Assembly (NCBI GenBank): GCA_017440805.1
Contig: JAFSGN010000009.1
Span: forward strand, 4,302-68,301
Length of the DNA: 64,000 nucleotides
Source of the DNA: Clostridia bacterium
Lineage (GTDB): Bacteria; Bacillota; Clostridia; Oscillospirales; SIG627
Direction of reading: 5' to 3'
Both the position numbers and the translations under genes were made by a program. Positions 3,798 to 62,811 of the stretch are shown one piece after another. The notes below the pieces were generated by a model. That model saw only the letters and a list, made by a program, of their open reading frames with translations, did no database searches and was not told the origin of the DNA. The number at the start of each line of letters is the position of its first letter. Positions within the stretch are counted from its first letter, which is position 1.

Positions 3798-5663
3798 ATG
3801 CGGAACGAAAAAAACAGCCATAACAAGTCCCGAACAAGCGAGTTTTTCAATGCATTATTGTCCGTGCTTATGTTACCGGTATCGTTTGTTCTGTCCTTGC
3901 CGCAAAGGATAAAAGGATTTGTGAAGAAACTCGGCAACAAGGAACTGTATAAGAACGCTGCTCACTATACATTGAACTGCAAATCATACAATCCCTCTTT
4001 TTCAGGACTTTTCGTGTGTTTCAAAGCATCGGGATTAGGCTTTTTTGACAGTTTATACAATGCTCTTTACATGTATGTAAGCGAGAAAGTTTTCCGTTCC
4101 GAAGATTTACCCAAAAAACGCTACGGAAATACTGCCATTCACCCGTTGGGTTACAACCGGAAAAACAGTAAAGTTACTTTCTGGTCGTTTGTTACAGGTA
4201 TACTCGATGTTATTCCCCGTGTTTGCTTTATCCCATCAAAGATTTCAGCGAAATTAAAATCAAACAGACTTCTCAACGAAAACAGTTTTTCCAATATAAT
4301 GAGATTTGTCTCGGGTTGCCGCAGAAAAGTTTCCTACATACTTCCCGTTATTATGGCTGCGGCAGTCGGTTTATACATCTACAATGTTTCCTCTTCGGAA
4401 ATTGTACTTAATGTATCATACAACGGCATTGAACTGGGACATGTGGAAAACAGCGATGTAATAAACAATGTTATCAACTCGGTGGAAGAAACAATTTCGG
4501 GTGCATCGGGAGTTTCCATGAAACTTTCGGGAAATATCACCTACTCCACCTCCAAAACATCCTCCCCCGACTATGCAACCTCTTCCGAACTTTATTCAGA
4601 CATACTCACGGAAGCAAAAAAAGATTATACCGACGCATACGCATTATATATTGACGGCACATTTGTTGCGGCATGTCAGACAAAAACCGAAATTGAAAGT
4701 GTTCTTAACGAGTTTTCAGGCGGTGACTATACGGTGATTGCCAACGGAATACAAATTCTCAAACAGGATTACCCCAAAAACTCCGTGAAAACTGCAGAGC
4801 AACTCAGAGAAATTCTGGGTAACGGCTCAAAACCAAAAGAAAAACTTGTAGTTATGTCCCTTAATGCAACAACTATAAAAGATGAGCCTGCAGCACCGGT
4901 AAAAGTTCTGAGAAACATTCCTGCCCCCATAAATGACGATGAGGTCGACTTTTCCAACGCATATGCTATTGACGACACTCAAAAGGTACTTGAAATAAAT
5001 TATCTTACCGAAGAATTCCAGCAAAAGACAGTTGTTTCCAAATACGAAACAAGATACGAATACGACCCCGATATGTATATTACATCAAAATATGTAAAAC
5101 AGTACGGAAGAGACGGGTCAAAAAAAGTTACAGAAAAAATAACATATATCAACGGCATAGAAGATTCCCGACTCACAGTAAGCGAAGAAACCATAAAACA
5201 GCCGATTGACAAAATTGTGGTATGCGGGCTCAAACCACTGCCCGAAAACAGCCGTTCCGGTGAGGGAAAAGTAATGATATGGCCCTACGAAGGCGAAATA
5301 AACGAACACTTCGGCTGGAGGGTCAGAAACAACTCTTATTATGAATATCATGCCGGAATTGATATGTCCGCTCCCAGAGGCACTCCCATTTTTGCAGCAG
5401 CATCCGGTGTGGTGGAAAAAGCAGGAAATTTCTACAACGGTTACGGAAAAATGGTAATAATTCACCACGGAGACGGCATACAGACCTACTACGCACACAT
5501 GAACGATATTTATGTTTCCACAGGTGATGTTATCACCCAGGGTACAATTATAGGTGAAATAGGTTCAACAGGTGATTCCACCGGAAACCACATACATTTT
5601 GAAGTTCGTGTCGACGGCACTCCTGACAATCCGTTGAACCACCTTATACCAAGAGGAGAATAA
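3798..5663 (+). CDS. M23 family peptidoglycan metalloendopeptidase with G5 domain and long membrane-anchored N-terminal region
   Basis: HAGIDMSAPRGTPIFAAASGVV and GNHIHFEV (M23 Zn motifs). A G5-like segment YEYDPDMY..GRDGSKKVTEKITYINGIE precedes them. RBS is AAGGAG. Confidence 0.85.
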   Translation: MRNEKNSHNKSRTSEFFNALLSVLMLPVSFVLSLPQRIKGFVKKLGNKELYKNAAHYTLNCKSYNPSFSGLFVCFKASGLGFFDSLYNALYMYVSEKVFRSEDLPKKRYGNTAIHPLGYNRKNSKVTFWSFVTGILDVIPRVCFIPSKISAKLKSNRLLNENSFSNIMRFVSGCRRKVSYILPVIMAAAVGLYIYNVSSSEIVLNVSYNGIELGHVENSDVINNVINSVEETISGASGVSMKLSGNITYSTSKTSSPDYATSSELYSDILTEAKKDYTDAYALYIDGTFVAACQTKTEIESVLNEFSGGDYTVIANGIQILKQDYPKNSVKTAEQLREILGNGSKPKEKLVVMSLNATTIKDEPAAPVKVLRNIPAPINDDEVDFSNAYAIDDTQKVLEINYLTEEFQQKTVVSKYETRYEYDPDMYITSKYVKQYGRDGSKKVTEKITYINGIEDSRLTVSEETIKQPIDKIVVCGLKPLPENSRSGEGKVMIWPYEGEINEHFGWRVRNNSYYEYHAGIDMSAPRGTPIFAAASGVVEKAGNFYNGYGKMVIIHHGDGIQTYYAHMNDIYVSTGDVITQGTIIGEIGSTGDSTGNHIHFEVRVDGTPDNPLNHLIPRGE

Positions 5664-58633: not shown

Positions 58634-58662
58634 TTGACAAATTGAAATTTGCGGAGTATAAT
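58634..58662 (+). promoter_or_regulatory. Consensus sigma-A promoter of T-box unit 2
   Basis: TTGACA-17 nt-TATAAT. Confidence 0.6.
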
Positions 58663-58691
58663 ACATTCCAAGGTTTGAATATCACAAAAAA

Positions 58692-58956
58692 CGACTGTGA
58701 CGAGGACGGTCGGATTGTGAGGCCTTGAGAGAGTTGCCGGGTGGTGCGAGGCAATGGCGGAACTTTCCAATGACTTATCACCTCTGAGTCGAAGGACCGA
58801 AAAGTTTTACTTAGTAGACTCCTTCCGTAACGCTGCGTAAAAGCAAAGAACTTGTTTGAGTTCAGTAAGTGACGGAATACTTGTATTCCGTAATTTGAGT
58901 GGTACCGCGGGTTGTTATAACTCGTCTCAAAGTTATCTTTGGGGCGAGTTTTTTGT
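58692..58956 (+). promoter_or_regulatory. T-box leader (riboswitch) 2, specifier position reads AUC (Ile; tentative), transcription-attenuation type
   Basis: Base stem CGACT/AGTCG. K-turn GTGACGAGG/CCTCTGAG. ATC-A directly 5' of the CCTC helix (58777-58780). AGAGAG bulge, GGTGCGA distal loop, T-box GAGTGGTACCGCGG (58897-58910). Terminator CTCGTCTCAAAG/CTTTGGGGCGAG followed by T6. Confidence 0.8.
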
Positions 58957-59013
58957 TTTATTCGGATTTGTAAACAAATATCACATTTGTCAGATTTGAA
59001 AGGAGACAAAACA

Positions 59014-61314
59014 ATGGATTACAGTTTAAAAGAAGTGGCAGGAAGAATCAAGGACCTGCGTGAAGCAAAAGGTTTTACGCCGGACCAACTTGCAAAACTT
59101 ACAGGTGTATCTGTTGAAGATTACAAAGTTTTAGAGAGAGGCGAAACAGACTTCACCTTCACATTCATTTACAAATGTGCAAAGGCTTGTGGCGTTGAAG
59201 TTGTTGATTTGCTCGAAGGAACAAGCAGTACCCTCACCTCTTTTACCGTTACAAGAAAAGGCGAAGGACTTAAAATTTTAAAGAAGCACGGGGTGGAATA
59301 CGACAATCTGGCTCCCAAGTTCAAAGAAAAACTTGCCGAACCGTTCCTTGTTAAATTCCCCTATCTTGAAGAAGAACAAAATCAGCCGATAAAATTGAGT
59401 TCACACAATGGTCAGGAATTTGATATCATTGTCAAAGGCTCTCTCAAAGTTCAGGTCGGAAACCATATAGATGTTCTCAATGAAGGTGATTCTATTTTCT
59501 ACAACAGTATCATTCCCCATGGTATGGTTGCTGTTTCAGAGGGCGGTTGTGAATTTCACGCAATCGTTTTAAATCCGCAAGACGGACTTGTAAGCGAAGA
59601 ATACCCCGATGCACCTATTTCATCTGAAAAGCATCTGGTAAAAGAGGTTAAATCCGGAACTGTTGCCGATGATTTCATTGAATCATCCTATGACGAAAAC
59701 GGTGTATTCAACGGCATAACCTTCAAAAATGCGGATAAATTCAATTTTGCATTTGACTGTGTGGATGCAATCGCACAAAAAAATCCCGACAAACTTGCAA
59801 TGATGTGGGTTGCAAACGATAAAACAGACAGAAGATTTACTTTCAGTGATTTGAAAAAGTATTCAAACAAAACCGCAAACTATTTTGAATCTCTGGGAAT
59901 CAAAAAAGGCGATACCGTAATGCTGGTATTAAAACGCCACTATCAGTTCTGGTTCTGCATGCTTGCACTTCATAAAATCGGTGCTATCGCAATCCCCGCG
60001 ACAAACCAACTTGTAGAACACGATTTTGATTACAGATATAAAGCGGCAAGAGTAAAAGCAGTTGTCTGCACAAATGACGGCGAGGTTTCATGTGAAGCAG
60101 AAAAAGCCGCGGCAAACTATCCCGGAATGGTAAAAGTTCTGGTTGGCGGTGAAAAAGAGGGATGGCACGATTTCAATGTTGAAATGGAACGCTTCAGCAC
60201 ACACTTTGACAGAAACGAAAACTCCCCCTGCGGAAATGAGCCTATGCTTATGCTCTTTACCTCCGGTACAACAGGATACCCCAGAATTGCAACACATTCA
60301 TATAAATACGCATTGGGACATTATCCCACAGCAAAGCATTGGCACAATGTAAATCCCGACGGACTTCATTTCACAATCTCCGATACAGGTTGGGGTAAGG
60401 CTCTCTGGGGCAAACTCTACGGTCAATGGTTATGTGAAGCAGCCGTATTTACTTATGACTTTGATAGATTCCGCTCGGAAGACATCCTGCCCATGTTTGC
60501 AAAATATCATATTACAACTTTCTGTGCTCCCCCTACAATGTACCGTTTCTTCATCAAGGAAGATTTGTCAAAGTATGACCTTTCATCCATCGAATATGCT
60601 ACAACAGCAGGCGAAGCACTGAACCCTGAAGTATTCAATCAGTTCAAGAAAGCAACAGGACTTACAATCATGGAAGGGTTCGGTCAGACAGAAACAACAC
60701 TTTCCATCGCAAACTTTGTAGGCTCAACTCCCAAAATCGGTTCAATGGGCAGACCCAGTCCTTTATATGATGTAGTTGTCCTTGACCCTGACGGAAACGA
60801 ATGTAAAACAGGCGACACAGGTGAAATCTGTATCCGCACAAAAGACGGTTCTCCCTGCGGTCTCTTTATCGGATATTACCTTGACGAGGAAAAGACCAAA
60901 GAGGTCTGGTATGACGGATACTATCATACAGGCGACCAGGCAACCATGGACGAAGACGGATATCTCTGGTATGTGGGCCGTATCGATGATGTAATCAAAT
61001 CCTCCGGCTACCGCATCGGTCCTTTTGAAATAGAAAGTGTTATCATGGAACTTCCTTATGTTCTTGAATGTGCAATTACTCCGGTTCCCGATGAGGTCCG
61101 CGGACAGATTGTAAAAGCGACAATCGTACTTGTTAAAGGAACAACCGGCACAGACGAGTTAAAAAAAGAAATCCAGGAATATGTAAAAACACATACTGCT
61201 CCTTATAAGTACCCGAGAATTGTCGAGTTTGTAGATGAACTTCCAAAGACAATCAGCGGTAAAATCAGGCGTGTGGAAATCCGTAAGAACGACCAGAAAA
61301 AAATGAGCAAATAA
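59014..61314 (+). CDS. Fusion protein: XRE-type HTH, cupin domain and ACSM/MbcS-type AMP-forming (medium/short-chain) acyl-CoA synthetase
   Basis: Residues 1-65 are an HTH_3 domain (LREAKGFTPDQLAKLTGVSVEDYKVLERGE). Residues about 100-195 are a cupin (GQEFDIIVKGSLKV..GDSIFYNS.IPHG). The remainder is an adenylate-forming enzyme (LFTSGTTGYPRIA, GFGQTET, YHTGD, SGKIRR). The ATG at 59014 follows AAAGGAGA. Confidence 0.85.
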   Translation: MDYSLKEVAGRIKDLREAKGFTPDQLAKLTGVSVEDYKVLERGETDFTFTFIYKCAKACGVEVVDLLEGTSSTLTSFTVTRKGEGLKILKKHGVEYDNLAPKFKEKLAEPFLVKFPYLEEEQNQPIKLSSHNGQEFDIIVKGSLKVQVGNHIDVLNEGDSIFYNSIIPHGMVAVSEGGCEFHAIVLNPQDGLVSEEYPDAPISSEKHLVKEVKSGTVADDFIESSYDENGVFNGITFKNADKFNFAFDCVDAIAQKNPDKLAMMWVANDKTDRRFTFSDLKKYSNKTANYFESLGIKKGDTVMLVLKRHYQFWFCMLALHKIGAIAIPATNQLVEHDFDYRYKAARVKAVVCTNDGEVSCEAEKAAANYPGMVKVLVGGEKEGWHDFNVEMERFSTHFDRNENSPCGNEPMLMLFTSGTTGYPRIATHSYKYALGHYPTAKHWHNVNPDGLHFTISDTGWGKALWGKLYGQWLCEAAVFTYDFDRFRSEDILPMFAKYHITTFCAPPTMYRFFIKEDLSKYDLSSIEYATTAGEALNPEVFNQFKKATGLTIMEGFGQTETTLSIANFVGSTPKIGSMGRPSPLYDVVVLDPDGNECKTGDTGEICIRTKDGSPCGLFIGYYLDEEKTKEVWYDGYYHTGDQATMDEDGYLWYVGRIDDVIKSSGYRIGPFEIESVIMELPYVLECAITPVPDEVRGQIVKATIVLVKGTTGTDELKKEIQEYVKTHTAPYKYPRIVEFVDELPKTISGKIRRVEIRKNDQKKMSK

Positions 61315-61374: not shown

Positions 61375-62811
61375 TTGAAAAAAACATATGTAACTTCCAT
61401 GCCAAACCATATAGGTGCCTTTTTGAAAGCAAGTAAATGCTTTTCGGAATTGGGGGTAAATATCACCCGTGTAAGTTATAACAAGGCAGTTGATTCCCAC
61501 ACCTTGTTTATTGACGCCGAAGGAACAGAGGAACAATTAAAAAAGGCAGATAACCAACTTGAGAAAATCGGATATCTGCAAAGCAATACGAATAAGACCA
61601 GTATCGTTTTGATTGAGTTCTGTCTTGAAGATGTACCGGGAAGTGTTACAAATGTACTTGAACTTATAAATAAATTCAACTTCAATATATCCTATATCAG
61701 TTCTCAGGAAAACGGTACAGATTATCAATATTTCAAAATGGGTTTATATGTTGATGATTTTGATAAAATTTCCGAGTTTTTAAAAGAAGTGGAGAAACTT
61801 TGTAAAGTTCGTGTGATAGACTACAACAGTTCCGAAAAGGTGTATGATAACAGTATTTTTTACAACACCTATGTTTTAGGTCTGTCGCAGACAATGGGAC
61901 TTTCGGAAAAAATAAGCCGTGAACTTTTGGTACATGTCAACCTTGCAATGCAGACACTTGACGAACAAGGACTGTCTCCGTACCGCACTTTTGACAGTAT
62001 AAGTAAGTTTGCCGAACTTTTAGGCGACTCAAAGGGGAAAAATTTTAATCCCCGCATAAGCACTCACAGAATAACTGACAACACCGAAATAATTCTTATA
62101 GAGCCTCCCTGCGGAAGCAATACCATAATTATAAAAAGCAATGAAAAGGTTCTGTTTGTAGACAGCGGATATGCCTGTTATGCGGATGAGATGCTGGAAG
62201 TATTCAAAAAATTATTTCCCGGGTTTGACAAAATGGAAAAGACAATTCTTGTAACTCACGCAGATGTGGACCACTGCGGACTTTTACCGTTGTTCGATAA
62301 GATAATTGCAAGTAAAAAAACTGCGGACTGTCTTGTTAATGAACACCAGGGCAAAAACGGTTACAGAGAATCAAATCCTCTCCATAAGCCATATATTAAT
62401 ATCTGTAAAATTTTAACATCATATCAGGCATTGGAGCCATGTAAAATAACTGCTATGTGGAATGATGTTCCCGACCTGACAGAACCTCTGACACAAATCG
62501 GATTTTTCAACTTTGAAGAACTGCACTTTGAGGTATACGAAGGAAAGGGCGGTCATCTGCCCGGCGAGATTGTGCTGATAGATTATTCAAAACATATTGC
62601 CATCACAGGCGACATTTATATCAACACACACGGCCTGACTGAAAAACAGGCAAAATACAACCAGTATGCACCAATCCTTATGACCTCAGTGGACACCGAC
62701 CCGAATTTGTGTTTAGAGGAAAGAAAAGCAATTATGCAAAGACTGGGCGTAGGCACCTGGCAGATATTTGGCGCACACGGATTCAAAAAAGATTATTCGG
62801 TTAATTTATAA
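61375..62811 (+). CDS. Fusion protein: tandem ACT domains plus metallo-beta-lactamase-fold hydrolase
   Basis: Two ACT-like units (NHIGAFLKASKCFSELGVNITRVS and DVPGSVTNVLELINKFNFNISYIS), then an MBL core (VTHADVDHCG as HxHxDH variant, ..ITGDIYI.., GAHG). The TTG start follows AGAGGTGA. Confidence 0.75.
   Translation: MKKTYVTSMPNHIGAFLKASKCFSELGVNITRVSYNKAVDSHTLFIDAEGTEEQLKKADNQLEKIGYLQSNTNKTSIVLIEFCLEDVPGSVTNVLELINKFNFNISYISSQENGTDYQYFKMGLYVDDFDKISEFLKEVEKLCKVRVIDYNSSEKVYDNSIFYNTYVLGLSQTMGLSEKISRELLVHVNLAMQTLDEQGLSPYRTFDSISKFAELLGDSKGKNFNPRISTHRITDNTEIILIEPPCGSNTIIIKSNEKVLFVDSGYACYADEMLEVFKKLFPGFDKMEKTILVTHADVDHCGLLPLFDKIIASKKTADCLVNEHQGKNGYRESNPLHKPYINICKILTSYQALEPCKITAMWNDVPDLTEPLTQIGFFNFEELHFEVYEGKGGHLPGEIVLIDYSKHIAITGDIYINTHGLTEKQAKYNQYAPILMTSVDTDPNLCLEERKAIMQRLGVGTWQIFGAHGFKKDYSVNL

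What the first reader, a model, noticed from the sequence alone, without database searches (positions are those of the whole stretch)
59014..61314. HTH-cupin sensor fused to an acyl-CoA synthetase: possible BirA-like enzyme/repressor
An XRE-type DNA-binding domain and a small-molecule-binding cupin, the layout of stand-alone PuuR-type regulators, are fused N-terminally to an ACSM/MbcS-like adenylate-forming enzyme in one 766-aa ORF. By analogy with BirA (an HTH plus adenylating enzyme whose acyl-adenylate is the corepressor), the protein could couple carboxylate activation to transcription control. That would add a protein-level layer on top of the T-box.
Basis: inference. Interest (0 to 1): 0.6.

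Follow-up and report, generated by a model that had tools for sequence, protein, structure and literature searches.

The report
Isoleucine-gated acid ligase with fused sensor
This is a real and very common, but undescribed, gut-Clostridia protein: a 2-methylbutyrate-type CoA ligase that probably starts isoleucine synthesis from a fermentation acid. It sits behind an isoleucine-starvation RNA switch and carries a fused regulator-like "HTH-cupin" module, which more likely senses a small molecule for the enzyme than acts as a BirA-style repressor.

Summary
Positions 59014-61314 (+) encode one 766-aa protein with HTH_3, Cupin_2, AMP-binding and AMP-binding_C domains. It lies behind a sigma-70 promoter and an Ile (AUC) T-box.

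The fusion is not an assembly error. The same ORF occurs in more than 100 independent assemblies. About half of 301 sampled Clostridia genomes carry the HTH-cupin subfamily, mostly fused. Where the module is a separate ~190-aa gene, the ligase gene follows directly in 14 of 15 informative cases, including a split paralogue in this genome.

The ligase half is closest to MacsMa (PDB 3ETC), whose preferred substrate is 2-methylbutyrate. IlvC and IlvD were not found in this 94%-complete genome, but 2-oxoacid:ferredoxin oxidoreductases and an IlvE-type aminotransferase are present. Paralogue clades carry either Ile or Val T-boxes.

The BirA analogy is not supported:
- No operator is conserved among close orthologues.
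- The HTH is acidic throughout the subfamily (net -3 to -9), with Glu/Asp in the recognition helix.
- A disordered tether separates the module from the ligase.

The HTH is nevertheless under strong purifying selection. My best reading is a ligand-sensing partner module acting on the ligase (about 0.45). DNA binding remains possible (about 0.3).

The scan had already noted this cluster on the same DNA.

The parts
58634..58662 (+). sigma-70 promoter TTGACA-17-TATAAT
   Evidence: 12/12 match. The -35 and -10 elements are conserved in orthologues, while the spacer, which carries the palindrome CAAATTgaAATTTG, is not.
58674..58688 (+). 15-mer TTTGAATATCACAAA at the 5' end of the leader, conserved in clade A only; function unknown
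   Evidence: Conserved in L013-L017 although the flanks diverge. Unique in the window and in the genome. Absent from clades B1 and B2.
58688..58932 (+). T-box leader with specifier AUC (Ile)
   Evidence: RF00230 at 95 bits against a gathering score of 93. ATC is the invariant triplet at the specifier position while the bases before it vary.
58919..58960 (+). T-box terminator hairpin with U tract
   Evidence: 14-pair stem followed by TTTTTGTTTTA.
59014..61314 (+). CDS of the 766-aa HTH-cupin-ligase fusion (stop codon included)
59047..59208 (+). XRE-type HTH (HTH_3), residues 12-65; recognition helix VSVEDYKVLERG at residues 32-43
   Evidence: Pfam 35.6 bits. Five-helix fold with pLDDT 82-95. 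Acidic. dN is comparable to that of the ligase.
59395..59565 (+). Cupin_2 barrel, residues 128-184; invariant His131, Glu135 and His169 (codons 59404-06, 59416-18, 59518-20) and near-invariant His151
   Evidence: Pfam 32.1 bits. Invariant columns in alignments A3 and A4. The triad aligns with the HppE metal ligands.
59578..59733 (+). variable tether, residues 189-240 (residues 189-213 predicted disordered)
   Evidence: pLDDT about 27. Pairwise identity 0.32 and dN 0.32-0.38, the least constrained part of the protein.
59767..60879 (+). ANL-superfamily adenylation (AMP-binding) domain, residues 252-622
   Evidence: Pfam 200 bits. 680 bits to MacsMa 3ETC. Motifs TSGTTGYPR, GFGQTE and YHTGD can be read.
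61027..61263 (+). AMP-binding C-terminal domain, residues 672-750, with A10 motif PKTISGKIRR
   Evidence: Pfam 78 bits; sequence.
61375..62811 (+). downstream ACT / metallo-beta-lactamase-fold gene, probably co-transcribed; not a constant partner
   Evidence: Pfam. No terminator was found between the two genes. It follows the fused gene in L012, L013, L041, L100, L111 and L119, but not in the other loci searched.

Best explanation
The gene encodes the first enzyme of an isoleucine-from-acid route: an ATP-dependent CoA ligase for 2-methylbutyrate or a close branched short-chain acid. Its acyl-CoA product would be reductively carboxylated by a 2-oxoacid:ferredoxin oxidoreductase and then transaminated to isoleucine.

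Transcription is gated by an Ile (AUC) T-box, so the gene is read through only when tRNA-Ile is uncharged.

The N-terminal XRE-HTH plus cupin is a former separate gene that always sat directly upstream of this type of ligase. I think it most likely works as a metal-dependent small-molecule sensor or assembly module that acts on the tethered ligase after translation, for example by feedback or substrate gating of an ATP- and CoA-consuming step. In that reading its acidic HTH serves as a structural or protein-contact element rather than as a classical operator-binding domain.

Shown: the architecture, the T-box and its specifier, the conservation, the fused/split relationship, the closeness to MacsMa, and the genomic pathway context.

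Inferred: the substrate, the pathway flux, and above all the mode of action of the module.
For: Enzyme and pathway:
- All ANL core motifs are present. The best solved relative is MacsMa 3ETC at 680 bits, whose preferred substrate is 2-methylbutyrate (PMC10455477).
- The T-box specifier AUC is conserved in 80 fused loci. A sister clade of paralogues (support 1.0) carries GUA (Val) in all 15 parsed members, with G461A and L464M next to the A4 region of the ligase.
- No IlvD or KARI was found in the 94%-complete genome. Two OFOR sets and an Aminotran_4 gene are present.

The module as an obligate ligase partner:
- It is fused in all 30 loci from the same family and in essentially all of the 80 best loci from genome contigs.
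- 162 of 301 Clostridia genomes carry it. About four fifths of the 150 listed matches lie in frames of 720-830 codons (my count from the list).
- 14 of 15 informative stand-alone copies have the ligase gene immediately downstream.
- In this genome the split copy lies 36 nt before its ligase, inside a housekeeping operon, with no intergenic promoter region of its own.

Against operator binding:
- No palindrome is conserved among close orthologues, and there are no extra genomic copies beyond chance.
- The HTH net charge is -3 to -9 (pI 4.3-4.9) in fused and stand-alone members alike.
- Recognition-helix positions 35/36 are mostly Glu/Asp, and position 34 varies (V/T/A/I/P/L) among orthologues of 79-90% identity. 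Other HTH_3 proteins of the same genome show canonical S/R/Q/N/T helices.

Precedents and context:
- The functionally characterised solved structures with the same HTH-like plus cupin layout are enzymes (HppE, Psf4, HEPD, MPnS), not regulators.
- The other acid ligases near this gene are each paired with a ligand-binding regulatory module: a dead LeuA with its Leu-binding domain, and an ACT pair.
Against: - The module is by sequence and features a typical XRE-cupin. Characterised XRE-cupins are dimeric local repressors of the neighbouring enzyme gene (PMC7901475), which by itself explains the conserved adjacency.
- The HTH is under purifying selection as strong as that on the enzyme (dN 0.106 against 0.078; the linker is 0.375) and folds as a canonical five-helix HTH.
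- The long disordered tether and a pTM of only 0.65 give no sign of a fixed interface with the ligase.
- Split pairs mostly lack T-boxes and have ordinary promoters. One of them carries a perfect 15-bp palindrome in the promoter spacer (L122).
- No cupin residue distinguishes the Ile-type clades from the Val-type clade. This argues against the cupin reading the specific end product.
- Other HTH_3 domains in this genome can also be acidic (-4, -5).
- No biochemical data exist.
Confidence: 0.45

Rival explanations
1. Trigger enzyme. The fused XRE-cupin still binds DNA as a dimer and represses its own promoter and/or other genes, such as the oxidoreductase or transporters. A ligand in the cupin, or the state of the ligase, releases it. 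The result is an AND gate with the T-box.
For: - Full-length HTH_3 match above the cut-off.
- The nearest feature clusters are 'XRE family with cupin sensor'.
- XRE-cupins are local repressors of adjacent enzyme genes and bind palindromes as dimers (PMC7901475).
- The HTH is under strong purifying selection.
- The flexible tether would leave the HTH free to reach DNA.
- Recognition-helix positions 34, 35, 38 and 39 differ between paralogue clades, as expected for different operators.
- A 15-mer at 58674-58688 is conserved in clade A between the -10 element and the T-box.
- There is a perfect palindrome in the promoter spacer of one split pair (L122).
- An acyl-CoA ligase that also acts as a transcription factor has been reported (FadD1, PMC12754631).
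Against: - No palindromic operator is conserved among orthologues. The window's two palindromes are private to this genome and occur at chance frequency.
- The conserved 15-mer is not palindromic and is absent from clades B1 and B2.
- The HTH and its recognition helix are acidic throughout the subfamily.
- Position 34 of the recognition helix drifts among close orthologues.
- The split paralogue in this genome has no promoter region of its own.
- A repressor made in one-to-one amounts with an abundant enzyme is unusual.
Confidence: 0.3
2. Strict BirA analogy: the acyl-adenylate formed in the ligase active site is the corepressor that drives dimerisation and operator binding.
For: Only the formal resemblance: an HTH and an adenylate-forming enzyme in one chain.
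Against: - The catalytic domain is ANL superfamily (PF00501), not a BirA-type biotin-protein ligase domain.
- A whole cupin with its own conserved metal/ligand site and a disordered tether of about 25 residues lie between the HTH and the ligase.
- In many relatives the HTH-cupin is a separate polypeptide, so covalent coupling to the active site is not required.
- No operator was found.
Confidence: 0.05
3. The cupin is catalytic. The HTH-like plus cupin unit would be a metal enzyme, as in HppE and HEPD, that modifies the acid, the acyl-CoA or a later intermediate, and is fused to the ligase for channelling.
For: - Foldseek places the module next to HppE, Psf4, HEPD and MPnS (E 1e-14 to 1e-10).
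- The His-Glu-His triad aligns with the HppE metal ligands and is invariant in fused and stand-alone members.
- Several residues in the HTH are family-specific invariants (R11, Y37, D46, F51).
Against: - The acid to acyl-CoA to 2-oxo acid to amino acid route needs no extra chemistry.
- The known enzymes of this fold use O2, and these hosts are gut and rumen Clostridia, which I take to be anaerobes.
- TM-scores are only 0.4-0.5 and sequence identity about 20%.
- Many non-catalytic XRE-cupin sensors are expected to keep metal ligands too (my inference, not tested).
Confidence: 0.08
4. Artefact: two adjacent genes joined by a sequencing or assembly error.
For: A split form does exist in a paralogue and in other taxa.
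Against: The same uninterrupted ORF is found in more than 120 protein clusters from independent sources, in 30 of 30 family loci, and in roughly 100 further complete ORFs.
Confidence: 0.01

Closest known systems
MacsMa, medium-chain acyl-CoA synthetase of Methanosarcina acetivorans (PDB 3ETC)
   Same: ANL-superfamily ligase. It aligns over residues 30-552 of the 556-aa ligase part at 680 bits. Its preferred substrate is 2-methylbutyrate (PMC10455477), which fits the Ile T-box.
   Different: 3ETC is a 580-residue chain that aligns only with the ligase part. It shows nothing matching the HTH-cupin module. No T-box is involved there, and the biological role of MacsMa was not examined here.
MbcS (Staphylococcus aureus methylbutyryl-CoA synthetase) and human ACSM2A
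   Same: Same ligase subfamily. MbcS is the best NCBIfam model (455 bits) and ACSM2A scores 339 bits. MbcS activates branched short-chain acids (PMC10026030).
   Different: The score is far below the MbcS equivalog cut-off of 850, so this is not an MbcS orthologue. MbcS feeds branched-chain fatty-acid synthesis rather than amino-acid synthesis (PMC10026030). Neither hit covers the HTH-cupin part.
XRE-cupin transcription factors (PuuR, ErfA, PsdR, PauR; structure 1Y9Q)
   Same: Same two-domain layout and Pfam families. 1Y9Q is the best sequence and fold match. The conserved pairing with an adjacent enzyme gene matches their 'local functional unit' behaviour (PMC7901475).
   Different: This module is fused to its neighbour in most lineages. 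Its HTH is acidic, with Glu/Asp in the recognition helix, and no conserved palindromic operator was found. Transcription is already controlled by a T-box.
BirA (biotin protein ligase and bio repressor) and other trigger enzymes such as PutA and NadR
   Same: A DNA-binding-type domain and an enzyme in one polypeptide. The concept of an enzyme that reports its own metabolic state.
   Different: The catalytic superfamily is different. A separate sensor domain and a disordered tether are interposed. There is no operator and no evidence for adenylate-dependent dimerisation.
HppE / Psf4 / HEPD / MPnS (HTH-like alpha domain plus cupin Fe(II) enzymes)
   Same: Same two-domain fold and an aligned His/Glu/His triad. 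They show that this layout need not bind DNA.
   Different: Those are O2-dependent phosphonate enzymes with about 20% identity and an unrelated genomic context.

Membership tests
ANL superfamily acyl-CoA synthetase (MACS/ACSM/MbcS branch) | AMP-binding (PF00501) plus AMP-binding_C (PF13193) above the curated cut-offs | tested here: met
   200 bits (cut-off 29.9) and 78 bits (cut-off 24.5)
ANL superfamily acyl-CoA synthetase (MACS/ACSM/MbcS branch) | Core motifs A3 (TSGTTG), A5 (GxGxTE), A7 (YxTGD), A8 (GRxDDxIKxxGxRI) and A10 (PKTxSGKI) intact | tested here: met
   TSGTTGYPR, GFGQTE, YHTGD, GRIDDVIKSSGYRIGPFEIE and PKTISGKIRR were read in the translation. Most are invariant in 47 homologues.
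MbcS equivalog (NF047394) | Score at or above the NCBIfam equivalog cut-off of 850 bits | tested here: not met
   455 bits. It is a relative, not an orthologue.
ANL superfamily acyl-CoA synthetase (MACS/ACSM/MbcS branch) | Substrate is 2-methylbutyrate or another branched short-chain acid | not testable with these tools
   Inferred from 680 bits to MacsMa (substrate from PMC10455477) and from the Ile T-box.
T-box leader (RF00230) | Covariance-model score at or above the gathering threshold, with a specifier codon and a terminator | tested here: met
   95 bits against 93. AUC at the specifier position, conserved in 80 loci. Terminator at 58919-58950.
XRE-cupin transcription factors | HTH_3-type domain followed by a Cupin_2 domain | tested here: met
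   35.6 and 32.1 bits, both above the cut-offs. The folds were predicted with pLDDT 86.5.
XRE-cupin transcription factors | Palindromic operator at its own or the neighbouring promoter, conserved in orthologues | tested here: not met
   The window's palindromes are absent from orthologues of 88-90% identity and occur at chance frequency in the genome. Only isolated palindromes were seen in split relatives.
XRE-cupin transcription factors | Recognition helix with polar or basic base-contacting residues | tested here: not met
   VSVEDYKVLE here. Family positions 35/36 are mostly Glu/Asp and the HTH net charge is -3 to -9. Other HTH_3 domains of this genome read SRQSISKWE, HRTYISAIE and similar.
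XRE-cupin transcription factors | Sequence-specific DNA binding and repression | not testable with these tools
   Needs EMSA, DAP-seq or reporter assays.
BirA-type bifunctional ligase/repressor | Biotin-protein-ligase catalytic domain whose adenylate drives dimerisation and operator binding | tested here: not met
   The catalytic domain is PF00501, ANL superfamily. The HTH is separated from it by a cupin and a disordered tether. No operator was found. Adenylate dependence itself was not testable.
HppE/HEPD-type HTH-like plus cupin enzymes | Two-domain fold with a 2-His-1-Glu metal site | tested here: inconclusive
   Foldseek E 1e-14 but TM only 0.46-0.5. The triad aligns and is invariant. The chemistry and the context do not match.

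The most novel reading that the evidence does not exclude
The fused protein may be a T-box-dosed transcription factor as well as an enzyme. Isoleucine (or valine) starvation would set the amount of an XRE-cupin-ligase. Its cupin would read acid or acyl-CoA availability, and its HTH would then switch other genes that lack T-boxes, such as the oxidoreductase, transporters or the aminotransferase. That would extend the T-box regulon through a protein relay in roughly half of Clostridia.
Probability: 0.15. Interest if true: 0.8.

Novelty: new variant of a known kind. Interest (0 to 1): 0.58.

Why it matters
From textbook knowledge (not retrieved here), rumen and gut anaerobes have been known since the 1960s to need the "isoacids" isobutyrate, 2-methylbutyrate and isovalerate, and to turn them into valine, isoleucine and leucine by reductive carboxylation. 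The genes for the activation step and their control are poorly defined.

This family gives a sequence-readable marker:
- a MacsMa-like ligase whose T-box specifier (Ile or Val) tracks the paralogue clade;
- presence in about half of sampled Clostridia genomes;
- occurrence here in a genome where the classical IlvC and IlvD enzymes were not found.

It would allow isoacid dependence and cross-feeding in gut communities to be predicted from genomes.

The fused XRE-cupin module is also a tractable case for an open question. Is an apparently standard bacterial "transcription factor" architecture here a DNA-binding trigger enzyme, or has an XRE-HTH been repurposed as an enzyme-regulatory module?

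Tried and rejected
- **Operator search, window palindromes.** CAAATTgaAATTTG (promoter spacer) and ATTTGTaaACAAAT (between terminator and RBS) were rejected. They are not conserved in orthologues and occur twice each in the genome.
- **Operator search, conserved 15-mer.** TTTGAATATCACAAA is unique in the genome, is not palindromic and is specific to clade A, so it is kept only as an unexplained element.
- **Operator search, split pairs.** An inverted-repeat scan of 13 upstream regions of split pairs gave no shared motif. L122 and L141 (same family) share AATTCT-N3-AGAAT, but at different positions relative to the promoter.
- **GC-rich dyad** in the leaders of L129, L136 and L139. It varies by compensatory changes, so it looks like an RNA hairpin rather than an operator.
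- **Net charge alone as a test of DNA binding.** This is weakened because two canonical HTH_3 domains of the same genome are also -4 and -5.
- **dN/dS.** dS is saturated (1.4-2.5), so only relative dN was used.
- **Clade-specific residues in the cupin**, looked for as a sign of Ile/Val-specific sensing. None was found at the 85% threshold.
- **Whole-protein AF2 model.** It gave no information on a module-ligase interface.
Genomic context of the stand-alone homologues was obtained through the genome search instead.
- **RNA evidence.** No RNA holder was listed.
- **Literature searches** for the fusion found nothing in the held library.
Full report
**1. The observation.**

Positions 59014-61314 (+) are a single stop-free frame of 766 codons. 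An AGGAG lies 8 nt before the ATG. The longer TTG frame from 58939 begins inside the T-box terminator, and orthologues all begin at MDYSLKEVA, so 59014 is the start.

Pfam finds four domains, all above the curated cut-offs:
- HTH_3, residues 12-65, 35.6 bits, over the whole model
- Cupin_2, residues 128-184
- AMP-binding, residues 252-622
- AMP-binding_C, residues 672-750

All ANL core motifs can be read in the translation. The best NCBIfam model is MbcS at 455 bits, well under its 850-bit equivalog cut-off.

Upstream lie three elements:
- a perfect TTGACA-17-TATAAT promoter at 58634-58662
- a T-box leader at 58688-58932 (95 bits against a gathering score of 93)
- its terminator at 58919-58950

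**2. Not an artefact, and not rare.**

More than 120 protein clusters at 86-91% identity from four data sources carry the same domain string in 761-776 aa. At the 50%-identity level, further full-length fusions appear at 55% and 43% identity.

All 51 genomes of the window's family have relatives. In the 30 loci fetched, the HTH-cupin and the ligase are always one ORF. The "stops inside" that the search reported lie at the C-terminal end.

A scan of one genome per species found at least 585 relatives of the N-terminal module. The 80 best come from these groups:
- Acutalibacteraceae
- Oscillospiraceae
- Christensenellaceae
- Ca. Flemingiibacterium
- two Spirochaetales MAGs

These 80 are essentially all fused.

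In an even sample of the class, 162 of 301 genomes (93 of 178 genera) carry the module. By my count, about four fifths of the 150 listed matches lie in frames of 720-830 codons and the rest in frames of about 190-230 codons.

**3. Fused and split forms.**

The window's own genome (1.58 Mb, 94% complete) holds a split paralogue on another contig. It consists of a 186-aa HTH-cupin (37% identity) followed 36 nt later by a 557-aa ligase (51% identity). It has no T-box. The HTH-cupin start overlaps the end of an upstream ORF, and the pair is followed by an NAD synthase gene. It therefore has no intergenic promoter region of its own.

Sixteen stand-alone copies were fetched from other families:
- 14 have a ligase of the same subfamily directly downstream on the same strand.
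- One lies at a contig edge and is uninformative.
- One is followed by a YkuD gene instead.

The pairing is therefore nearly obligate, and the fusion joins two genes that were already neighbours. Split pairs mostly lack a T-box (3 of 16 have one), whereas fused genes nearly always have one. These counts are not phylogenetically independent.

**4. What the enzyme does.**

The ligase half matches MacsMa of Methanosarcina acetivorans (3ETC) at 680 bits. It matches human ACSM2A at 339 bits. MacsMa prefers 2-methylbutyrate (PMC10455477).

The T-box specifier, read from the cmscan alignment, is AUC. In alignments of relatives, ATC is the constant triplet while the preceding bases vary (CTT, CCC, CCT, TCT, CAT).

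A tree of 111 complete fused proteins has three clades:

| Clade | Members | Specifier |
|---|---|---|
| A (ours) | 19 | no codon other than AUC |
| B1 | 72 | no codon other than AUC |
| B2 (support 1.0) | 20 | GUA (Val) in all 15 parsed members |

Across clades A and B1, 80 of the 91 members could be parsed, and all 80 read AUC.

B1 and B2 often sit in tandem, each with its own promoter and T-box. The Val clade differs from both Ile clades at G461A and L464M, just after the DTGWG segment, and at M553L and L563M. This is what a smaller acyl pocket for isobutyrate would look like, though that is my inference.

Genomic context for the pathway:
- IlvD and KARI were not found.
- A three-subunit 2-oxoacid:ferredoxin oxidoreductase is present.
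- A paaK-iorA-iorB cluster is present.
- An Aminotran_4 gene is present.

The region also has two other gated ligases:
- A Leu (CUC) T-box stands before a dead-LeuA and TIM-barrel-ligase pair.
- Just past the window end, a third T-box that I read as UUC (Phe) stands before a PaaK-like ligase and an ACT-pair protein.

The coherent reading is that this small-genome anaerobe makes several amino acids from the corresponding fermentation acids. Each activating ligase is gated by the T-box of its end product. This gene would be the isoleucine entry.

**5. What the HTH-cupin does.**

The module is functional. Non-synonymous divergence in the HTH (0.106) and the cupin (0.104) is close to that of the ligase (0.078). 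The tether is at 0.375.

Both domains fold confidently. Residues 189-213 are predicted disordered (pLDDT about 27), and the whole-protein pTM is 0.65.

His131, Glu135 and His169 (plus His151) are invariant or nearly so in fused and stand-alone members. They align with the metal ligands of HppE.

*For a DNA-binding role:*
- The module is by every sequence measure an XRE-cupin.
- Characterised XRE-cupins are dimeric local repressors of neighbouring enzyme genes (PMC7901475).
- The HTH is conserved.
- The tether would leave the HTH free to reach DNA.

*Against a DNA-binding role:*
- The two palindromes in the window's control region are absent from orthologues of 88-90% identity and are at chance frequency in the genome.
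- The only conserved non-T-box element, TTTGAATATCACAAA at 58674-58688, is not palindromic and is confined to clade A.
- The HTH carries a net charge of -3 to -9 (pI 4.3-4.9) in the whole subfamily, stand-alone members included.
- The positions that contact DNA in 434-type HTHs (my mapping from textbook knowledge) are Val/Glu/Leu, Glu/Ala/Asp and Glu/Asp. The first of them drifts (V, T, A, I, P, L) among close orthologues. Other HTH_3 domains of this genome have canonical helices.
- The split copy in this genome has no promoter of its own.
- The functionally characterised solved proteins with this two-domain layout are enzymes, not regulators.
- The neighbouring ligases of the same pathway type are each paired with a ligand-binding regulatory module, not a transcription factor.

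I therefore favour a ligand-sensing partner module that acts on the ligase (0.45) over a DNA-binding trigger enzyme (0.30). A catalytic cupin gets 0.08.

No cupin residue separates the Ile and Val clades. This suggests that the ligand is common to both pathways (a metal, CoA, a nucleotide or a generic 2-oxo or acyl group) rather than the specific amino acid. That weakens the simplest feedback model and is an open point.

**6. The BirA analogy.**

It fails as a membership claim:
- The catalytic superfamily is different.
- No operator was found.
- The HTH is not adjacent to the adenylation site.
- The module works as a separate polypeptide in many genomes.

As a functional analogy ("an enzyme that also regulates") it survives only in the broader trigger-enzyme form.

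**7. Novelty and limits.**

Searches of the held literature found nothing on this fusion. The sources that name it call it "AMP-binding protein".

Both halves belong to known families, and the T-box is standard. What is new:
- the near-obligate pairing and fusion
- its breadth across Clostridia
- the link between specifier and paralogue clade
- the atypical acidic HTH

Everything about substrate, ligand and mode of action is inference, and no expression data could be obtained. Earlier notes of this scan had already flagged the cluster on this same DNA. I re-tested the specifier assignment, and I used the "sensor partner" idea only as a lead.

Noticed in passing
L153:2954-3201 (T-box), L153:3216-4598 and 4614-5045 (= G000:C6:69753-71845, about 1.4 kb beyond the window end): A third T-box lies in the same neighbourhood (108.5 bits). 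I read its specifier as UUC (Phe). It stands before a PaaK-like ligase (AMP-binding plus AMP-binding_C_2) and an ACT-pair protein. This looks like a phenylacetate-to-Phe counterpart of the Leu and Ile units.
   Followed up: partly
L010:5098-7368 (-) (= G000:C11): Split paralogue of the finding: a 186-aa HTH-cupin and, 36 nt later, a 557-aa ligase. It has no T-box and is embedded between an upstream ORF that overlaps the HTH-cupin start and an NAD synthase gene.
   Followed up: partly
L151:637-4324 (+) and L152:4019-6372 (-) (= G000:C22): A paaK-iorA-iorB cluster and a three-subunit 2-oxoacid:ferredoxin oxidoreductase. IlvD (PF00920) and KARI_C (PF01450) were not found in the 94%-complete genome.
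   Followed up: partly
L020-L040 and L045-L116 (relatives): Many relatives carry two or three fused paralogues, often in tandem (B1 then B2). Each has its own promoter and T-box, with Ile (AUC) on B1 and Val (GUA) on B2. The Val clade differs at ligase residues G461A, L464M, M553L and L563M.
   Followed up: partly
L129, L136 and L139, about 20-50 nt upstream of the stand-alone HTH-cupin start: A GC-rich nested hairpin (GCCCA..CCxCGxGG..TGGGC) in the leader of T-box-less split pairs. Its inner stem changes by compensatory substitutions, so it is probably an RNA element.
   Followed up: no
L122, about 124 nt upstream of the HTH-cupin start: A perfect 15-bp palindrome, AATTCTAATAGAATT, lies exactly in the spacer of a TTTACA/TAAAAT promoter of a split pair. 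A similar AATTCTTGAAGAAT occurs in L141 (same family) but further upstream. This is the only operator-like lead found.
   Followed up: partly
L019:4083-4200 (-): An Rfam Fusobacteriales-1 RNA match (80 bits against a gathering score of 52) lies downstream of a fused gene in a relative from the same family.
   Followed up: no
window 61375-62811: The ACT / metallo-beta-lactamase gene follows the fused ligase in only some relatives (L012, L013, L041, L100, L111, L119). It is therefore an accessory, not a fixed part of the unit.
   Followed up: partly
G000:C22:381921-382142, C16:110379-110612 (-), C11:9743-9941: Three further T-box leaders in the genome, one of them below the gathering score. Their downstream genes were not examined.
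   Followed up: no
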